From the NCBI GenBank assembly GCA_963765495.1, contig CAVXWP010000001.1, positions 256,001 through 320,000 of the forward strand: DNA of 64,000 bases. The letters run 5' to 3'. Positions 55,124-58,928 of the stretch are shown here, in pieces. The notes under the pieces were generated by a model, which was not told the origin of the DNA, made no database searches, and worked only from the letters and a program-made list of their open reading frames with translations. Positions within the stretch are counted from its first letter, which is position 1, and every line of letters begins with the position of its first letter. The DNA is from Blastocatellia bacterium (GTDB lineage: Bacteria > Acidobacteriota > Blastocatellia > UBA7656). The position numbers and the translations under genes are program-made.

Positions 55124-58100
55124 ATGAACAGGACATTTTTCAGCATTTCCCGAGGCCCGGCTCTCTTAACATTAAACCTTTTGCTGCTGGTCGCTTTCAC
55201 GCTGGCCCAGTCTGTCGGAGCCAGCGCCGACGATAATTTTACGATCAAATCTTCGGTTATAGCGGGCGGCGGCGGCTCGAGCACGGGCGGCGCACTGGCC
55301 ATTGACGGTACAATTGGTCAAGCCATGGTTGGTATATCAAGCGCAGGAAATTTCTCTGTCGCGGGCGGTTTCTGGAATACACTTACACAAATTCCCGCAG
55401 TCAGCAATTCGATATCAGGGACGATCTCTTATTGCATCGACAACTCAAAGAAAGTCCCCAACGCCACCGTCCAGACTACCAGCGGTTCCCCTTCCGCTTC
55501 CACTACTACTAACGCCTCCGGCTTCTATCAACTCGATAACCTCGGCACTGGCCCTTACACCGTTGCTCCTTCCAAAACCGGTGCCGTCTCCGGCATCTCT
55601 GCTCAGGATATCGGTATCCTCCGCCGCCTCGCCGCTGGCATCGATACCCCCACTCCCTGTCAATCCATCGCTGGCGATACAGATAACAACGGCTCGCTCG
55701 GCGCCCAGGACATCGGCTTCCTTCGAAGATTTGTCGCTCAACTTACTACCACTGGCATCACTGGCTCCTGGAAATTCTCTCCCGCCTCCAAAACCTATCT
55801 TTCCCTCGTCTCTAATCAAACAAACCAGGATTACGATGCCTTGCTGATCGGAGATGTTGACGGCAACTGGACCCCCGCTGCTCCTGATCCTGCTTCATTT
55901 CAGAAGAGTCAGGCTCCTTCGGCCACTAACCTTGCCCTCTCTTTGCCCAGTGTCGTTGCTCCTCCCGGTTCTACTGATGTCTCTATCCCGGTCATGGTTA
56001 ACGGCACTCTCACAAACGGCGATTTCGTTTTGGGCTACACAATCGAGATCAGTTTCGATCCCAGCGTGCTGGTTCCACATTCGCCCTCATTCAACACGAC
56101 AGGGACGGTTTCATCGACCGGGGTCGTCACAGAGAACACGGGTGTGTCGGGGAGGCTCCGACTTGTGGTCGATTTCCAGAATCCGCTGATATTCACAGGG
56201 CAGCAGACGCTGATAATATTGAGGTTCGATGTGGTAGGGACACAGGGACAGATGAGCGGGCTCAACTGGTTCTTCACGGAATTTGGGAGCGGCCCACCTG
56301 CCGTCACCACCACGACTACAAACGGCAACTTCACCGTCACAAGCCCCACTGCCGTAAAAGTCGATGCCTTCAAGGCCACGGGCTTTGACAAGGGCGTATA
56401 TCTCCAGTGGCAGACCGGGTTTGAATCTACTAACCTCGGCTTCAACATCTATCGCCAGCAGGCGGGCAAACTCTCTCTTGTTACGCCTGAAATATTGGCC
56501 GGGTCGGCGCTTTTGACAGGTGACACGCCCTTGCTTGCCGGGCGGAAATATTCGTGGTGGGATAATTCACCCGATAGTAAACAGGACGCGCTCTATTATC
56601 TGGAAGACATTGACCTCAACGGCACAAGGAGCCTGCACGGGCCGATAGTTGCAACCAGAGCATCAGGCAATCCGCCTGCTGGCTCTCGGGCCGAGTTGTT
56701 GAGCCGGATGGGCAGAGGCAAGGCTACAATCAGCGACTACGTCGCTTCCTCCTCCCCTGGCAGCGCCCAACTGGCAACCGTTTCCTCAAAGAAAGGATTA
56801 CAAAACTCCAGGCGAGAGACAGTGCCTGTTGATCTGGCGACCTCCTCTGCCATAAAGATGTGGATAGGCAATAGCGGGCTCTATCGCCTCACTCAGCCGC
56901 AACTGCTGAGCGCCGGCCTCGATTCCGGGATAGATCCGCGACTCTTGCAGATGTATGTCGACGGGCAGGAGGTTCCAATCCTTGTCACTGGCCAGGATGA
57001 CGGAAGATTTGATGCCGCGGACACAGTGGAATTCTACGCTTCGGCAATCGACAGCCCGTTCACCTCGAAGCGGGTCTACTGGCTTGTGGCAGGGACAGTG
57101 GCGGGAAGACGGATAACAAAGGTGACGAGTCCCGGGAAGGGGCAGAGCAACGCTAGTTTTACCTCGACCCTGGAGCGACGAGACAAGACGATCTACTTTT
57201 CGAGTTTGAGGAACGGGGATGAGGAGAACTTCTTTGGGCCGGTCATAGCCTCGCAGGAAGTCGATCAGTCGATAGATGTGAAAGATATGGCAGCGGGAGG
57301 AGGAACTGGGGCAGTGCTTGAAGTGGGATTACAGGGAGTAAGCGCGGTCAACCATCGAGTAAAAGTGAGGTTGAACGGGACGGAGTTGGGAGAGGTAAAT
57401 TACAGTGGGCAGGGAGCAGGAGTAGGGAGATTCACACTCTCAAGCGGGCAACTGGTGGAAGGAAGAAACGACATCAAGATGGAGGGGGTGGGAACAGGAG
57501 GAGATGTGAGCCTGGCCGAGTATGTGAGAGTGAGCTATGAGAGGAGGTACAAGGCGGAAGGAGATGAGTTGAGATTCCGAGCAGAGGGGGGCCAGGAGGT
57601 AAAGATAGGAGGGTTCACAAGCGAACGGATACGAGTATTTGATGTAACGGAGGAAGGGAATGTAGTGGAGATAGGAGGAGCGATAGAAGAGAGCGGGAAC
57701 GGGTATGAGATAGGGATCAAGGTAGGAGGAGCAGGAGAGAGAGAGATGATGGCGATAGAGGAAGGGGAGGTGAGAGAGGTAGGAGAGATGAGAAAGAACG
57801 AGGCGTCGAAGCTGAGAGCGACGAGCCAGGGAGCGGACCTGTTGATAATCACGACGGGAGAGATGGGAGGAAGTCTGGAAGGGTTGAAGGCGCTGAGACA
57901 GAGTCAGGGGATGGCGGTAGCGATAGTGAAGGTGGAAGACATCTATGACGAGTTCAGCCAGGGAGAGAAGACGCCGTATGCGATAAGAGAATTTCTGATA
58001 TATGCGAAGAGGAACTGGAAGAGGAAGCCGGGATATGTGTTGATGGGAGGGGATGCGAGTTACGACCCGAAGAATTATCTGGGAGCGGGGGAATGGGATC

Positions 58101-58861
58101 TGGTGCCGACGAAGTTGGTGGACACGGCGTATCTGGAGACGGCCTCAGATGAATGGATGGTGGACGAGGATGGAGACGGGATAGGAGAGATGGCGATAGG
58201 GCGACTGCCGATAAGGAGCGAGGAAGAAGGGATGAGGATGGTAGGGAAGATAATGAGTTATGAGAGAGGAGTATCGAGGAGGAGTGTGTTATTGGTATCG
58301 GATGCGAATGATGGATACAACTTTGAGCAGGCGAACGAAGAGTTGAAGGGGATGATACCGAAGGGGACGAGGATAGAAGAGGTAAAGAGGGGGCAGATGA
58401 GCGAGGAGGAAGCGAGGGCGAGGGTGATAGGAGGGATAAACGAAGGGCAGGCGATAGTGAGTTATGCAGGGCACGGGTCGGTGGATATATGGAGAGGAGA
58501 GATATTGAGGAGCGAGGATGGAGAGATAATGAGGAATGGTAATCAGTTGAGTGTATTTCTGATGATGACGTGTTTGAACGGATATTTTGAGGATCCGATG
58601 TTGGAGAGTTTGGGAGAGGCGATGATGAAGGCGGAGAGGGGAGGAGCGGTAGCGGTATGGGGGTCGAGCGGGATGTGTGAAGCGGGAGAGCAGGCGGCAG
58701 TGAGCAAGGAGATGATGAGGGAGCTAAACAGTGTGGAGGGGTTGACGAAGAAGAAGGTGACGATAGGAGAAGCGGCGAGGAGGGCGAAGGGGAGGATAGG
58801 AGATGTGGATGTAAGGAGGACGTACGTGTTGTTGGGAGACCCGACTATGCGCCTCAGATAA
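55124..58861 (+). CDS. Exported modular protein: Ig-like, dockerin-like, cohesin-like and peptidase C25 (gingipain family) domains
   Basis: Signal peptide; duplicated dockerin-like motif (ISAQDIGILRR / GDTDNNGSLGAQDIGFLRR); cohesin-like ISFDPSVL...ILRFDV; C25 motifs DIYDEFS, GDASYD, AIGRLP, YAGHGS (His), MTCLNG (Cys), LLGDP. Confidence 0.85.
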   Translation: MNRTFFSISRGPALLTLNLLLLVAFTLAQSVGASADDNFTIKSSVIAGGGGSSTGGALAIDGTIGQAMVGISSAGNFSVAGGFWNTLTQIPAVSNSISGTISYCIDNSKKVPNATVQTTSGSPSASTTTNASGFYQLDNLGTGPYTVAPSKTGAVSGISAQDIGILRRLAAGIDTPTPCQSIAGDTDNNGSLGAQDIGFLRRFVAQLTTTGITGSWKFSPASKTYLSLVSNQTNQDYDALLIGDVDGNWTPAAPDPASFQKSQAPSATNLALSLPSVVAPPGSTDVSIPVMVNGTLTNGDFVLGYTIEISFDPSVLVPHSPSFNTTGTVSSTGVVTENTGVSGRLRLVVDFQNPLIFTGQQTLIILRFDVVGTQGQMSGLNWFFTEFGSGPPAVTTTTTNGNFTVTSPTAVKVDAFKATGFDKGVYLQWQTGFESTNLGFNIYRQQAGKLSLVTPEILAGSALLTGDTPLLAGRKYSWWDNSPDSKQDALYYLEDIDLNGTRSLHGPIVATRASGNPPAGSRAELLSRMGRGKATISDYVASSSPGSAQLATVSSKKGLQNSRRETVPVDLATSSAIKMWIGNSGLYRLTQPQLLSAGLDSGIDPRLLQMYVDGQEVPILVTGQDDGRFDAADTVEFYASAIDSPFTSKRVYWLVAGTVAGRRITKVTSPGKGQSNASFTSTLERRDKTIYFSSLRNGDEENFFGPVIASQEVDQSIDVKDMAAGGGTGAVLEVGLQGVSAVNHRVKVRLNGTELGEVNYSGQGAGVGRFTLSSGQLVEGRNDIKMEGVGTGGDVSLAEYVRVSYERRYKAEGDELRFRAEGGQEVKIGGFTSERIRVFDVTEEGNVVEIGGAIEESGNGYEIGIKVGGAGEREMMAIEEGEVREVGEMRKNEASKLRATSQGADLLIITTGEMGGSLEGLKALRQSQGMAVAIVKVEDIYDEFSQGEKTPYAIREFLIYAKRNWKRKPGYVLMGGDASYDPKNYLGAGEWDLVPTKLVDTAYLETASDEWMVDEDGDGIGEMAIGRLPIRSEEEGMRMVGKIMSYERGVSRRSVLLVSDANDGYNFEQANEELKGMIPKGTRIEEVKRGQMSEEEARARVIGGINEGQAIVSYAGHGSVDIWRGEILRSEDGEIMRNGNQLSVFLMMTCLNGYFEDPMLESLGEAMMKAERGGAVAVWGSSGMCEAGEQAAVSKEMMRELNSVEGLTKKKVTIGEAARRAKGRIGDVDVRRTYVLLGDPTMRLR

Positions 58862-58885
58862 CGCAGAATGCCGCAATTAAATTGG

Positions 58886-58928
58886 AGAGGGGCTGATGAG
58901 TGGTATATCAACTCATCAGCCCCTTTCT
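58886..58928. terminator. Hairpin between convergent genes (probable bidirectional terminator)
   Basis: AGGGGCTGATGAGT / ACTCATCAGCCCCT followed by TTCT. Confidence 0.75.

What the first reader, a model, noticed from the sequence alone, without database searches (positions are those of the whole stretch)
55440..58850. Extreme, switching strand skew inside one intact gene
Seen: 55440-55990 is C-rich (26 C vs 9 G in 55441-55500). About 56090-56290 turns G-rich, 56290-56490 is C-rich again, and 57100-58850 is strongly purine-rich (52 of 60 bases in 57721-57780, with 2 C). Synonymous codons follow the skew (GGC/ACT/TCC versus GGA/AGG/ATA), and the purine tract is rich in E, G, M, R and K while catalytic motifs survive. 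Neighbouring genes show nothing similar, and one switch falls at the cohesin boundary. Inference: a local strand-asymmetric mutational process acting per module, such as repeated recombination or gene conversion among paralogous cassettes.
Basis: partly seen in the sequence, partly recalled or inferred. Interest (0 to 1): 0.7.

Follow-up and report, generated by a model that had tools for sequence, protein, structure and literature searches.

The report
Purine-pyrimidine polarity of duplicated DNA
The strange strand bias in this protease gene is real, fills exactly a 3.5-kb cassette that exists twice in the genome, and is one case of a pattern seen in most repeated DNA of this soil bacterium and its relatives, which points to an undescribed bias tied to copying between repeats.

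Summary
Confirmed and widened. The gene (window 55124-58861, +, 1245 aa) encodes an intact C25-family peptidase. At fourfold-degenerate sites it is 8% purine in 55440-55990 and 93% purine in 57101-58858, against a genome mean of 47%. So the skew is purine versus pyrimidine, is strongest at silent sites, and is GC-neutral.

The skewed span matches a duplicated cassette: window 55400-58863 is 99.5% identical to a segment on another contig, and its flanks are unrelated. Its first 1.2 kb also occurs in a third, mosaic paralogue.

The same polarity, pyrimidine-rich 5' part to purine-rich 3' part on either strand, marks other multi-copy DNA in this genome. Examples are both tuf genes, two radical-SAM genes, surface-protein modules and several IS families. 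It holds in 87 of 92 repeat pairs of at least 1 kb. Single-copy genes lack it, with 12 of 2996 showing a comparable gradient.

tuf shows the gradient in 9 of 12 genomes of the same acidobacterial family and in 0 of 79 tuf genes from other taxa.

My best explanation is a strand-polar transversion bias tied to ectopic recombination between repeats, filtered by selection on the protein. That mechanism is inferred, not shown. Five literature searches found no description of it.

The parts
55124..58861 (+). Intact gene for a 1245-aa secreted multidomain C25-family cysteine peptidase. It has a hydrophobic N-terminal leader, a CarboxypepD_reg-like domain (aa 96-155) and Peptidase_C25 (aa 907-1244).
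   Evidence: ORF list; translation; Pfam (Peptidase_C25 E 7.5e-75 over profile 2-374 of 374; CarboxypepD_reg E 1.8e-08). The leader is read by eye.
55400..58863 (+). Duplicated cassette of 3464 nt, with 18 mismatches and no gaps against G000:C7:562206-565669. It is fused in frame to two unrelated N-terminal parts and ends 2 nt after the stop codon. It is the unit that carries the whole skew.
   Evidence: blastn. Flanks are unrelated (4-11 of 30 identical per bin). In the C7 gene, fourfold purine falls from 0.62-0.65 to 0.00 across the block's left edge in mid-ORF.
55406..56624 (+). Sub-block also present in a third paralogue (G000:C7:411486-410268, minus strand), 92% identical overall but a patchwork of 74-100% per 100 nt. 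This is a gene-conversion-like mosaic.
   Evidence: Downstream of 56624 the same paralogue is only about 69% identical where alignable and 49% at protein level.
55440..55990 (+). Pyrimidine-rich domain of the coding strand: 8% purine at fourfold sites; C 37%, G 19% overall.
55789..55813 (+). Patch of 11 differences in 25 nt that is unique to this copy; the other two copies agree with each other. All 5 G of the ancestral state are lost. Its 3 transversions are all R>Y, in the direction of the local skew. No donor exists in this genome.
56090..56490 (+). Weak double switch: 56090-56290 has GC skew +0.22 and fourfold purine 0.76; 56290-56490 has skew -0.22 and fourfold purine 0.24. The third copy shares it. 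Present repeat boundaries do not explain it.
57101..58858 (+). Purine-rich domain: 72% purine overall, 93% at fourfold sites, and 1.00 in windows around aa 846-936. It encodes the C-terminal module including the C25 catalytic domain (nt 57842-58855). The protein is enriched in E, G, M and K.
57535..58911 (-). Antisense open frames (105, 122 and 296 aa stop-to-stop). They are by-products of a pyrimidine-rich antisense strand that cannot spell stop codons, not genes.
   Evidence: The same frames recur in the C7 copy. Their fourfold purine is unremarkable (0.44). This reading is an inference.

Best explanation
The skew does not belong to the gene. It belongs to a 3.46-kb cassette that exists in two near-identical copies, with its first 1.2 kb in a third. 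It is one instance of a rule that holds for multi-copy DNA in this genome and in its acidobacterial family. Within a repeat unit, each DNA strand is pyrimidine-rich towards its 5' end and purine-rich towards its 3' end. I propose that the cause is copying between the repeats, meaning interlocus gene conversion or double-strand-break repair that uses the other copy. In such events new DNA is made, or heteroduplex is corrected, with a fixed strand polarity relative to the break. A transversion difference gives a purine-purine mismatch on one heteroduplex and a pyrimidine-pyrimidine mismatch on the other. If these are made or resolved unequally, each strand is pushed towards purines on one side of the events. 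In unique DNA the pushes from left and right cancel. In a repeat the ends of homology break that symmetry, so a gradient builds up that stops at the repeat boundary. Selection on the protein filters the changes. Silent sites saturate, Leu/Arg first positions and conservative replacements (L>M, A>G, D>E) follow, and the catalytic domain stays intact.

Shown: the skew, its limits, its association with repeats, its lineage range, and the gene's integrity. Inferred: that recombination causes it, and how the polarity arises.
For: (1) The skew is DNA-level and GC-neutral. Fourfold purine is 0.93 or 0.08 against 0.47 background, and fourfold G+C is 0.64 in the R domain against 0.67 background.
(2) The limits of the skew match the limits of the duplicated block.
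(3) Conversion-like mosaicism exists among the three paralogues, plus an 11-change patch that is derived in this copy.
(4) Genome-wide ORFs of at least 300 aa: unique ORFs (n=2996) have dR4 0.010 +/- 0.085 and 0.4% exceed 0.3. ORFs at least 80% repeated (n=74) have mean 0.296, 50% exceed 0.3, and none falls below -0.3. dR4 is fourfold purine in the last third minus the first third.
(5) At family level, 13 of 36 repeat families exceed 0.3.
(6) Plus-strand purine rises from left to right in 72 of 89 repeat intervals, against 48% of 2000 random unique intervals, and in 87 of 92 distinct repeat pairs of at least 1 kb. Flanks read 0.50, the inner left 0.43 and the inner right 0.565.
(7) Unrelated gene kinds share the pattern: two tuf copies (0.23 to 0.95, while neighbouring fusA, rpoB, rpoC and r-protein genes read 0.40-0.47), two radical-SAM genes (0.00 to 1.00), HYR/DUF11 surface-protein modules, and IS110, IS4 and other transposases.
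(8) The two ends are near mirror images. Pooled fourfold sites of the 13 families read A.11 C.38 G.13 T.38 in the first quarter and A.37 C.09 G.47 T.07 in the last quarter. A strand-symmetric DNA process predicts this; codon preference does not.
(9) Lineage range: tuf dR4 is at least 0.31 in 9 of 12 genomes of the same family. In the 4 genomes where both copies were held, the identity block equals the CDS. dR4 ranges from -0.27 to +0.16 in 79 tuf genes of other taxa and is 0.00 in E. coli tufA.
(10) Among the gene's 9 other paralogues in the genome, fourfold purine is graded from 0.46 to 0.73. Tandem near-identical duplicates in two relatives show weaker versions.
Against: Recombination as the cause is not shown.
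- Derived singleton changes in repeats with three or more copies show no directional excess: R>Y versus Y>R is 127/120, 68/62 and 32/27 in the left, middle and right thirds. Compositional equilibrium would also give balance.
- IS copies are identical because of recent transposition, not necessarily conversion.
- Seven currently single-copy ORFs also carry the gradient. At least 4 of them are relatives of the IS or integrase families. So mobility, not copy number, could be the common factor.
- Some near-identical repeats lack the gradient or reverse it: a Peptidase_S74 tail-fibre-like pair at -0.28, an Mrr-like pair at 0.03, and a TonB-receptor pair at 0.14.
- tuf is purine-rich throughout in 2 family genomes (G008, G021), although the repeat unit in G008 is the same CDS.
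- The sign change sits at 20-35% of the unit rather than at its centre. The wiggle at 56090-56490 is unexplained.
- This block is 99.5% identical to its copy, so its skew could predate the duplication.
- No enriched k-mer and no MutL or NucS presence/absence difference points to an enzyme.
- Repeat copies and related genomes are not independent samples.
Confidence: 0.5

Rival explanations
1. Mobile-DNA life cycle rather than recombination between resident copies. The skewed units (IS elements, shuffled cassettes) repeatedly pass through a polar, single-stranded or replicative copying step, such as transposition, rolling-circle transfer or uptake. That step loads one strand with purines, and duplicated host genes acquire the pattern secondarily.
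For: Most skewed families are transposases of several IS families. Single-copy relatives of IS or integrase families also carry the gradient. The cassette is fused in frame to unrelated N-termini, like a shuffled module. E. coli IS genes show mild positive values: IS30 0.08, IS5 0.18, IS3 insF 0.18, and IS1 insB 0.37 on only 83 sites.
Against: tuf, the radical-SAM pair and the surface-protein modules are not mobile elements. In tuf the identity block is exactly the CDS in four genomes. Transposition copies one strand across the whole element and predicts a uniform skew, not a sign change inside the unit. IS110-type genes in 15 homologues from other acidobacterial families show the opposite sign or none, -0.39 to +0.02. 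So the element type does not fix the pattern; the host lineage does.
Confidence: 0.2
2. Selection on the transcript or the DNA of this gene. Candidates are purine loading to keep the mRNA unstructured, a C-poor body that escapes Rho, a C-rich G-poor 5' part that acts as a Rho entry site, or codon choice that tunes translation.
For: The coding strand is the purine-rich one over most of the unit, as in general purine loading (recalled: Szybalski's rule). The purine domain is larger than the pyrimidine domain in most families. 55440-55990 is C 37% and G 19%, and 57100-58850 is C 12%.
Against: Single-copy genes do not show it, including the highly expressed fusA, rpoB and rpoC next to tuf. In the C7 paralogue the pyrimidine domain starts in mid-ORF at the repeat edge, not at a start codon. 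The 5' and 3' compositions are complements of each other. The protein pays a cost: 199 of 247 family-conserved columns are kept, against 83-97% in the other nine paralogues. No RNA data could be had.
Confidence: 0.1
3. Foreign origin. The cassette is a mosaic of pieces acquired from donors with different base composition.
For: Composition differs sharply from its flanks. The cassette is joined to unrelated sequence.
Against: G+C at fourfold sites is the genome's own, 0.64 against 0.67. No known donor class has 93% purine at silent sites. The protein is an ordinary member of a family with 11 copies here, and 27 of the 41 searched genomes (G000 included) have a match. The same polarity occurs in tuf.
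Confidence: 0.04
4. Assembly or base-calling artefact in repeats of a low-coverage metagenome-assembled genome.
For: The assembly does contain suspect stretches elsewhere. There is a poly(A) run of about 500 nt, and a repeat copy with 166 of 184 C read as T plus deletions. The only run that holds the sequence is probably its own source.
Against: 586 codons in a 72%-purine tract contain no stop. Changes concentrate at silent sites, and replacements are conservative. Logan contigs of run X1 rebuild the tract; 9 of 12 laid pieces are at least 99% alike. The tuf gradient recurs in 9 other genomes of the family assembled separately, including short collapsed contigs.
Confidence: 0.03

Closest known systems
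GC-biased gene conversion (gBGC), described for eukaryotes and proposed for bacteria (recalled; no paper read here)
   Same: A recombination-linked, non-adaptive drive that reshapes silent sites and then drags amino-acid composition along.
   Different: gBGC favours G and C equally on both strands and raises GC. Here GC is unchanged (fourfold G+C 0.64 against 0.67). The axis is purine versus pyrimidine, the sign flips within 1-3 kb, and the effect is confined to intragenomic repeats.
Replication-associated strand skew (GC skew; purine asymmetry of PolC-containing Firmicutes: PMC4070872, seen only as a search listing and abstract start)
   Same: A strand asymmetry that changes sign at a point, as at a replication origin. 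The purine excess is on the strand that would be extended outward from that point.
   Different: The scale and strength differ. The replichore skew of this genome is about 0.01-0.02, against up to 0.74 over 1.7 kb here. The pattern also follows each repeat copy whatever its orientation or contig.
Repeat-induced point mutation (RIP) of fungi (recalled)
   Same: A compositional change targeted to duplicated DNA and bounded roughly by the duplication.
   Different: RIP makes C-to-T transitions, lowers GC and destroys genes. Here the net change is transversional and GC-neutral, and the genes stay intact and conserved. A single C-to-T-converted repeat copy elsewhere (G000:C9:40487-41279) looks more RIP-like but may be an artefact.
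Concerted evolution of duplicated tuf genes by gene conversion (recalled from Salmonella and E. coli work; PMC6053082 on long-lasting concerted evolution in prokaryotes seen only as listing and abstract start)
   Same: Two tuf copies are kept 97-99% identical over exactly the coding sequence, with unrelated flanks.
   Different: No purine-pyrimidine gradient accompanies it outside this family. E. coli tufA has dR4 0.00, and 79 tuf genes from other taxa reach at most 0.16.
Peptidase family C25 (gingipain-like cysteine peptidases): the identity of the gene itself
   Same: Full-length Pfam match. The HG and C motifs are visible in the translation (SYAGHGS, MMTCLNGY). The C-terminal catalytic module sits on a multidomain secreted protein.
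   Different: Amino-acid composition is shifted relative to nine paralogues in the genome: E x2.1, M x2.5, G x1.6, K x1.6, and H, P, F, Q, L at x0.3-0.64.

Membership tests
Peptidase family C25 (gene product) | Match to the Pfam Peptidase_C25 profile above the curated cut-off over most of the profile | tested here: met
   252.9 bits against a cut-off of 23; profile positions 2-374 of 374; aa 907-1244
Peptidase family C25 (gene product) | Catalytic His and Cys retained | tested here: inconclusive
   H in SYAGHGS and C in MMTCLNGY are present, and 199 of 247 family-conserved columns are kept. Assigning them as the catalytic dyad rests on recall, not on a structural alignment.
GC-biased gene conversion | Rise of G+C at silent sites in the affected tract | tested here: not met
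   Fourfold G+C is 0.64 (R domain) and 0.56 (Y domain) against 0.67 background
GC-biased gene conversion | Association with recombining sequence | tested here: met
   The skew is confined to repeat units; there is mosaic identity among paralogues
Replication strand skew | Sign follows replication direction over replichore-scale distances | tested here: not met
   Contig-scale skew is 0.01-0.02. Repeat copies on either strand and on different contigs carry the same internal polarity.
Repeat-induced point mutation | C-to-T / G-to-A transitions with loss of GC and of coding capacity in duplicated DNA | tested here: not met
   The purine fraction changes from 0.47 to 0.93 at fourfold sites, which transitions cannot do. 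GC is kept and the ORFs are intact.
Diversity-generating retroelement target | Template and variable repeat pair differing at adenines of the template | tested here: not met
   The two copies differ at 18 of 3464 positions, of mixed types and not adenine-specific. No search for a reverse transcriptase nearby was made.
Transcription-linked strand asymmetry / purine loading | Present in genes generally and scaled with expression, uniform along the transcript | tested here: not met
   Unique ORFs have dR4 0.010 +/- 0.085. fusA, rpoB and rpoC read 0.43-0.44 next to tuf. The sign reverses inside the ORF.

The most novel reading that the evidence does not exclude
One family of Acidobacteriota has a strong, strand-polar, transversion-type drive that acts wherever DNA is copied between repeats. 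This could be an 'R/Y-biased gene conversion' or a purine-inserting repair synthesis. It is strong enough to take silent sites to 100% purine and to remodel protein composition, including EF-Tu's codons. Its sign is the opposite of a weaker gradient seen in IS110-type genes of other acidobacterial families. That opposition suggests the polarity is set by a lineage-specific property of the recombination or mismatch-repair machinery. Repeat-bounded purine gradients would then be a readable footprint of concerted evolution and of break and strand polarity in uncultured bacteria.
Probability: 0.4. Interest if true: 0.9.

Novelty: new variant of a known kind. Interest (0 to 1): 0.8.

Why it matters
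If the reading holds, recombination between repeats can impose a purine-pyrimidine strand polarity. That would be a new neutral force alongside replication skew, transcription skew and GC-biased conversion. Here it visibly overrides codon usage, even in tuf, and shifts amino-acid composition in a functional enzyme.

In practice, such tracts would be misread as foreign DNA, as codon adaptation or as antisense genes. They could instead serve as a sequence-only marker for long-lasting concerted evolution.

The lineage contrast offers a natural experiment for finding the responsible repair or recombination factor. It comprises 9 of 12 family genomes against 0 of 79 others for tuf, and an opposite sign for IS110 genes in other families.

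Tried and rejected
- Motif-driven (Chi- or KOPS-like) explanation. The most leading-strand-skewed 7-mer is the all-purine AGGGAAG (352 against 155). Neither it nor any other 5-7-mer stands out in five purine domains beyond position-specific composition (best z about 6 among thousands tested).
- Repair-gene presence or absence. MutL_C was found in 40 of 41 genomes, including 24 of 24 family members. NucS was found in 3 of 41. Neither gives a contrast.
- Polarising the process with singleton variants in multi-copy repeats gave no directional excess.
- Cross-genus tuf comparison at fourfold sites: 42-65% have diverged, and the transition share is 0.29-0.47. It is not clean enough to separate active maintenance from inheritance.
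- A donor for the 55789-55813 patch was not found in this genome.
- Cohesin or dockerin by Pfam at E up to 5: none.
- Expression: no RNA holder was listed for the stretch.
- Literature: five full-text searches listed nothing on purine-pyrimidine gradients in repeats. Only listings and abstract starts were seen, and no paper was read.
- The C-poor, T-rich three-gene tract on contig 8 was followed as a possible related case. It turned out to be a locally AT-rich locus whose orthologues vary from GC 0.40 to 0.61 among relatives. It is a different phenomenon.


Full report
1. THE OBSERVATION

The finding lies in one ORF, window 55124-58861 (+), 1245 aa. The window is G000:C1:256001-320000, in a 7.30-Mb assembly of 17 contigs.

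GC skew in 200-nt windows reaches -0.38 (55400-55599), +0.20 (56100-56299) and -0.19 (56300-56499). From 57200 to 58799 it stays between +0.44 and +0.74. AT skew is also positive there, so the tract is rich in purines, not just in G. Genome-wide, 300-nt windows have a skew sd of 0.098, and 50 of 145,880 exceed 0.6 in absolute value.

At fourfold-degenerate sites the bias is stronger, not weaker. 55440-55990 reads A.05 C.53 G.03 T.39. 57101-58858 reads A.34 C.05 G.59 T.02. The background from 2181 long ORFs is A.15 C.35 G.32 T.17. G+C at these sites is hardly changed (0.64 against 0.67), so the axis is purine versus pyrimidine.

No other ORF in the window comes near this. Windows of 60 fourfold sites range 0.23-0.72 elsewhere, against 0.03-1.00 in this gene.

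2. THE GENE

Pfam gives a full-length Peptidase_C25 match at aa 907-1244 (E 7.5e-75) and a CarboxypepD_reg-like domain at aa 96-155. No cohesin was found, even at E up to 5.

The C-terminal module belongs to a large family. There are 11 matches in this genome, and 27 of the 41 genomes searched (G000 included) have a match, with up to 32 matches in one genome.

Compared with nine paralogues in the genome, the purine-tract protein keeps 199 of 247 columns that at least 7 of the 9 conserve. The nine paralogues keep 83-97% in the same test. Its replacements are mostly conservative moves to purine-richer codons: L>M 9, A>G 5, D>E 4, L>I 3, V>I 3. Composition shifts to E x2.1, M x2.5, G x1.6 and K x1.6. 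The gene therefore looks functional, and the purine-rich state is derived.

3. WHAT THE SKEWED SPAN IS

Window 55400-58863 is 99.48% identical (18 mismatches, no gaps) to G000:C7:562206-565669, the 3' part of a 1925-aa ORF (stop to stop). Sequence on either side of the block is unrelated. The cassette is thus fused in frame to two different N-terminal parts, and it ends 2 nt after the stop codon.

In the C7 gene, fourfold purine runs 0.62-0.65 in the unique part and drops to 0.00 within about 40 codons of the block's left edge, in mid-ORF.

Window 55406-56624 also occurs in a third, full-length paralogue (C7:411486-410268) at 92% identity. Identity per 100 nt varies from 74% to 100% there, and the rest of that paralogue is only about 69% identical in nucleotides. 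This is a conversion-like mosaic.

At all 13 positions in this part where the two near-identical copies differ, the C7 copy agrees with the third copy. The window's copy is therefore the derived one. That includes an 11-change patch at 55789-55813 which removes every G and has no donor in the genome.

4. THE PATTERN IS NOT SPECIFIC TO THIS GENE

A scan of 4272 ORFs for windows of 80 fourfold sites (mean purine 0.475, sd 0.070) put almost only multi-copy genes at both extremes. These were:
- the two C25 cassettes;
- two identical radical-SAM genes (0.00 rising to 1.00);
- the two tuf genes (0.23 rising to 0.95);
- duplicated surface-protein modules with HYR and DUF11 domains;
- transposases of IS110, IS4 and other families.

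Next to tuf, the genes fusA, rpoB, rpoC and the ribosomal-protein genes read 0.40-0.47, so expression level is not the cause.

I define dR4 as fourfold purine in the last third of an ORF minus the first third.
- Unique ORFs of at least 300 aa (n=2996) give 0.010 +/- 0.085, and 0.4% exceed 0.3.
- ORFs lying at least 80% in repeats (n=74) give a mean of 0.296. Half exceed 0.3, and none falls below -0.3.
- Grouped into families, 13 of 36 exceed 0.3, 20 exceed 0.1, and 3 fall below -0.1. Many of the flat families sit within 15 kb of contig ends, where the 8.9-12.7-kb end duplications are probably assembly overlaps.

On the plus strand, regardless of gene orientation, purine content rises from left to right.
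- It rises in 72 of 89 repeat intervals of 0.9-5 kb, against 48% of 2000 random unique intervals. The mean profile is 0.50 in both flanks, 0.43 inside the left edge and 0.565 inside the right edge.
- It rises in 87 of 92 distinct repeat pairs of at least 1 kb.

Pooled fourfold composition of the 13 strongly graded families is A.11 C.38 G.13 T.38 in the first quarter and A.37 C.09 G.47 T.07 in the last. These are close to complements. So the rule can be stated without reference to genes: in a repeat, each strand is pyrimidine-rich 5' and purine-rich 3'.

Exceptions exist. A Peptidase_S74 tail-fibre-like pair gives -0.28, an Mrr-like pair 0.03, and the rRNA operons are flat. Seven single-copy ORFs have dR4 above 0.35, and at least 4 of them are relatives of the IS or integrase families.

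5. LINEAGE RANGE

The organism is an Acidobacteriota. Its EF-Tu is closest (89%) to a MAG labelled Pyrinomonadaceae among named records.

tuf results:
- dR4 is at least 0.31 in 9 of 12 genomes of the same family. It is 0.25 in one more. Two genomes are saturated, with purine 0.85-0.95 throughout.
- In the four genomes where both copies were held, the identity block is exactly the CDS, at 97.3-99.1%.
- In 8 genomes of other families of the class, dR4 runs from -0.22 to +0.21.
- In 79 full-length tuf genes of other taxa, the mean is -0.055 (sd 0.09) and the maximum is 0.16.
- E. coli tufA gives 0.00.

IS110-type transposase genes give +0.39 to +0.51 in the two family genomes that have them. In 15 homologues from other acidobacterial families they give -0.39 to +0.02, including a family with at least 12 copies at -0.35 to -0.39 (the loci of the unpublished genome G087 were not used). 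The opposite sign is unexplained.

Tandem near-identical C25 duplicates in two relatives show weaker gradients. Related genomes share ancestry, so these counts are not independent trials.

6. ARTEFACT?

Logan contigs of the one public run that holds the stretch (a soil metagenome, probably the source sample) rebuild the tract. Of 12 laid pieces, 9 are at least 99% alike.

A 72%-purine tract of 586 codons without a stop, changes concentrated at silent sites, conservative replacements, and recurrence of the tuf gradient in separately assembled genomes all argue against an artefact.

The assembly does hold suspect stretches elsewhere (section 9).

7. MECHANISM

What is shown:
- a GC-neutral, strand-symmetric, purine-pyrimidine pressure that is strongest at silent sites;
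- it is bounded by repeat edges;
- it is present in unrelated multi-copy families;
- it is specific to a lineage;
- in this gene it acts alongside evident conversion among paralogues.

What I infer is that the pressure arises during copying between repeats. In break repair that uses an ectopic copy, the top strand is newly made or paired to the right of the break, and the bottom strand to its left. A transversion difference then appears as a purine-purine mismatch in one configuration and a pyrimidine-pyrimidine mismatch in the other. Recalled biochemistry bears on this. MutS recognises G-G and A-A well and C-C poorly, and error-prone polymerases tend to make purine-purine mispairs.

Any inequality in making or resolving these mismatches gives a strand-polar purine drive. 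In unique DNA the contributions from breaks on either side cancel. In a repeat only breaks inside the homology count, so a gradient appears that ends at the homology edge. The direction of mismatch correction would set the sign, which could account for the opposite sign in other families.

Against this reading:
- there is no directional excess in singleton variants;
- IS identity is due to transposition;
- single-copy IS relatives are also skewed;
- the sign change is off-centre, and the wiggle at 56090-56490 is unexplained;
- there is no enzyme lead;
- this block's skew may predate its latest duplication.

I put the recombination reading at 0.5. The descriptive claim, that the skew belongs to the repeat and follows a genome-wide and family-wide rule, I put at about 0.85.

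8. COMPARISON AND NOVELTY

The pattern resembles GC-biased gene conversion in being a recombination-linked drive on silent sites. It resembles RIP in being targeted to repeats, and replication skew in having a sign change. It fails the defining feature of each: there is no GC gain, the net change is not transitional, there is no gene decay, and it is not at replichore scale.

Five full-text searches returned nothing on purine-pyrimidine gradients in repeats. Only listings were seen. I class it as a new variant of a known kind, namely compositional strand asymmetry and recombination-associated bias. There is a real chance that it is a new force in its own right.

9. SEEN IN PASSING

- G000:C9:32828-33324 is a poly(A) run of about 500 nt.
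- G000:C9:40487-41279 is a copy of C2:553748-554578 in which 166 of 184 aligned C read T. It also has 20 G>T, 7 A>T and 38 deleted bases, with no C gained and a single T>G in return. It is either a bad read built into the consensus or one-strand deamination of a repeat copy.
- G000:C8:350318-353368 holds three intact genes with fourfold C of 0.06-0.08 and T of 0.36-0.52. Orthologues of the acyl-CoA dehydrogenase gene vary from GC 0.40 to 0.61 among relatives.

Noticed in passing
G000:C9:40487-41279 (outside the window): Copy of G000:C2:553748-554578 in which 166 of 184 aligned C are T. It also has 20 G>T, 7 A>T and 38 deleted bases, with no C gained and one T>G in return. It abuts a truncated IS110-type gene. 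It is either one-strand deamination of a repeat copy or a faulty read in the consensus.
   Followed up: partly
G000:C9:32828-33324 (outside the window): Uninterrupted poly(A) run of about 500 nt in an IS-rich contig start. Probably an assembly artefact.
   Followed up: no
G000:C8:350318-353368 (outside the window): Three intact single-copy genes (a 357-aa ORF, a 251-aa ORF and an acyl-CoA-dehydrogenase-like ORF) with fourfold C of 0.06-0.08 and T of 0.36-0.52. Orthologues of the third gene range from GC 0.40 to 0.61 among relatives, so the locus is compositionally unstable in the family.
   Followed up: partly
G000:C14:103584-105713 and G000:C9:864576-866708: Two identical 710-aa radical-SAM genes with an HMPTM-type N-terminal zinc ribbon. 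They have the cleanest gradient in the genome: fourfold purine rises from 0.00 to 1.00, with the switch near codon 200.
   Followed up: partly
G000:C2:435719-436909 and 454395-455642; relatives G008, G015, G022: tuf duplicates are kept 97-99% identical over exactly the coding sequence. In G000 the first 90 codons are pyrimidine-rich at silent sites (0.23-0.30) and the rest purine-rich (0.78-0.95).
   Followed up: yes
loci L146-L164 (other acidobacterial families): IS110-type transposase genes outside the window's family show the opposite, weaker gradient, purine-rich 5' to pyrimidine-rich 3'. The gradient reaches -0.39 in a genome with at least 12 copies.
   Followed up: partly
whole genome G000, unique DNA of 11 contig parts: The all-purine 7-mer AGGGAAG is the most leading-strand-biased word (352 against 155). 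It is a candidate polar motif of the KOPS or Chi kind. A set of overlapping 8-mers (around TCGTGGAATTGAA) points to an oriented dispersed repeat.
   Followed up: no
window 57535-58911, minus strand: Long antisense open frames over the purine tract (105, 122 and 296 aa). A pyrimidine-rich strand predicts them; there is no sign that they are genes.
   Followed up: partly
G000:C1:125-166 kb, C7:549-566 kb: C25-module genes sit in clusters with further internal duplications of 2.9-3.5 kb. Two of them (C1:125744-127489 and C1:146601-148301) have intermediate fourfold purine of 0.72-0.73.
   Followed up: partly
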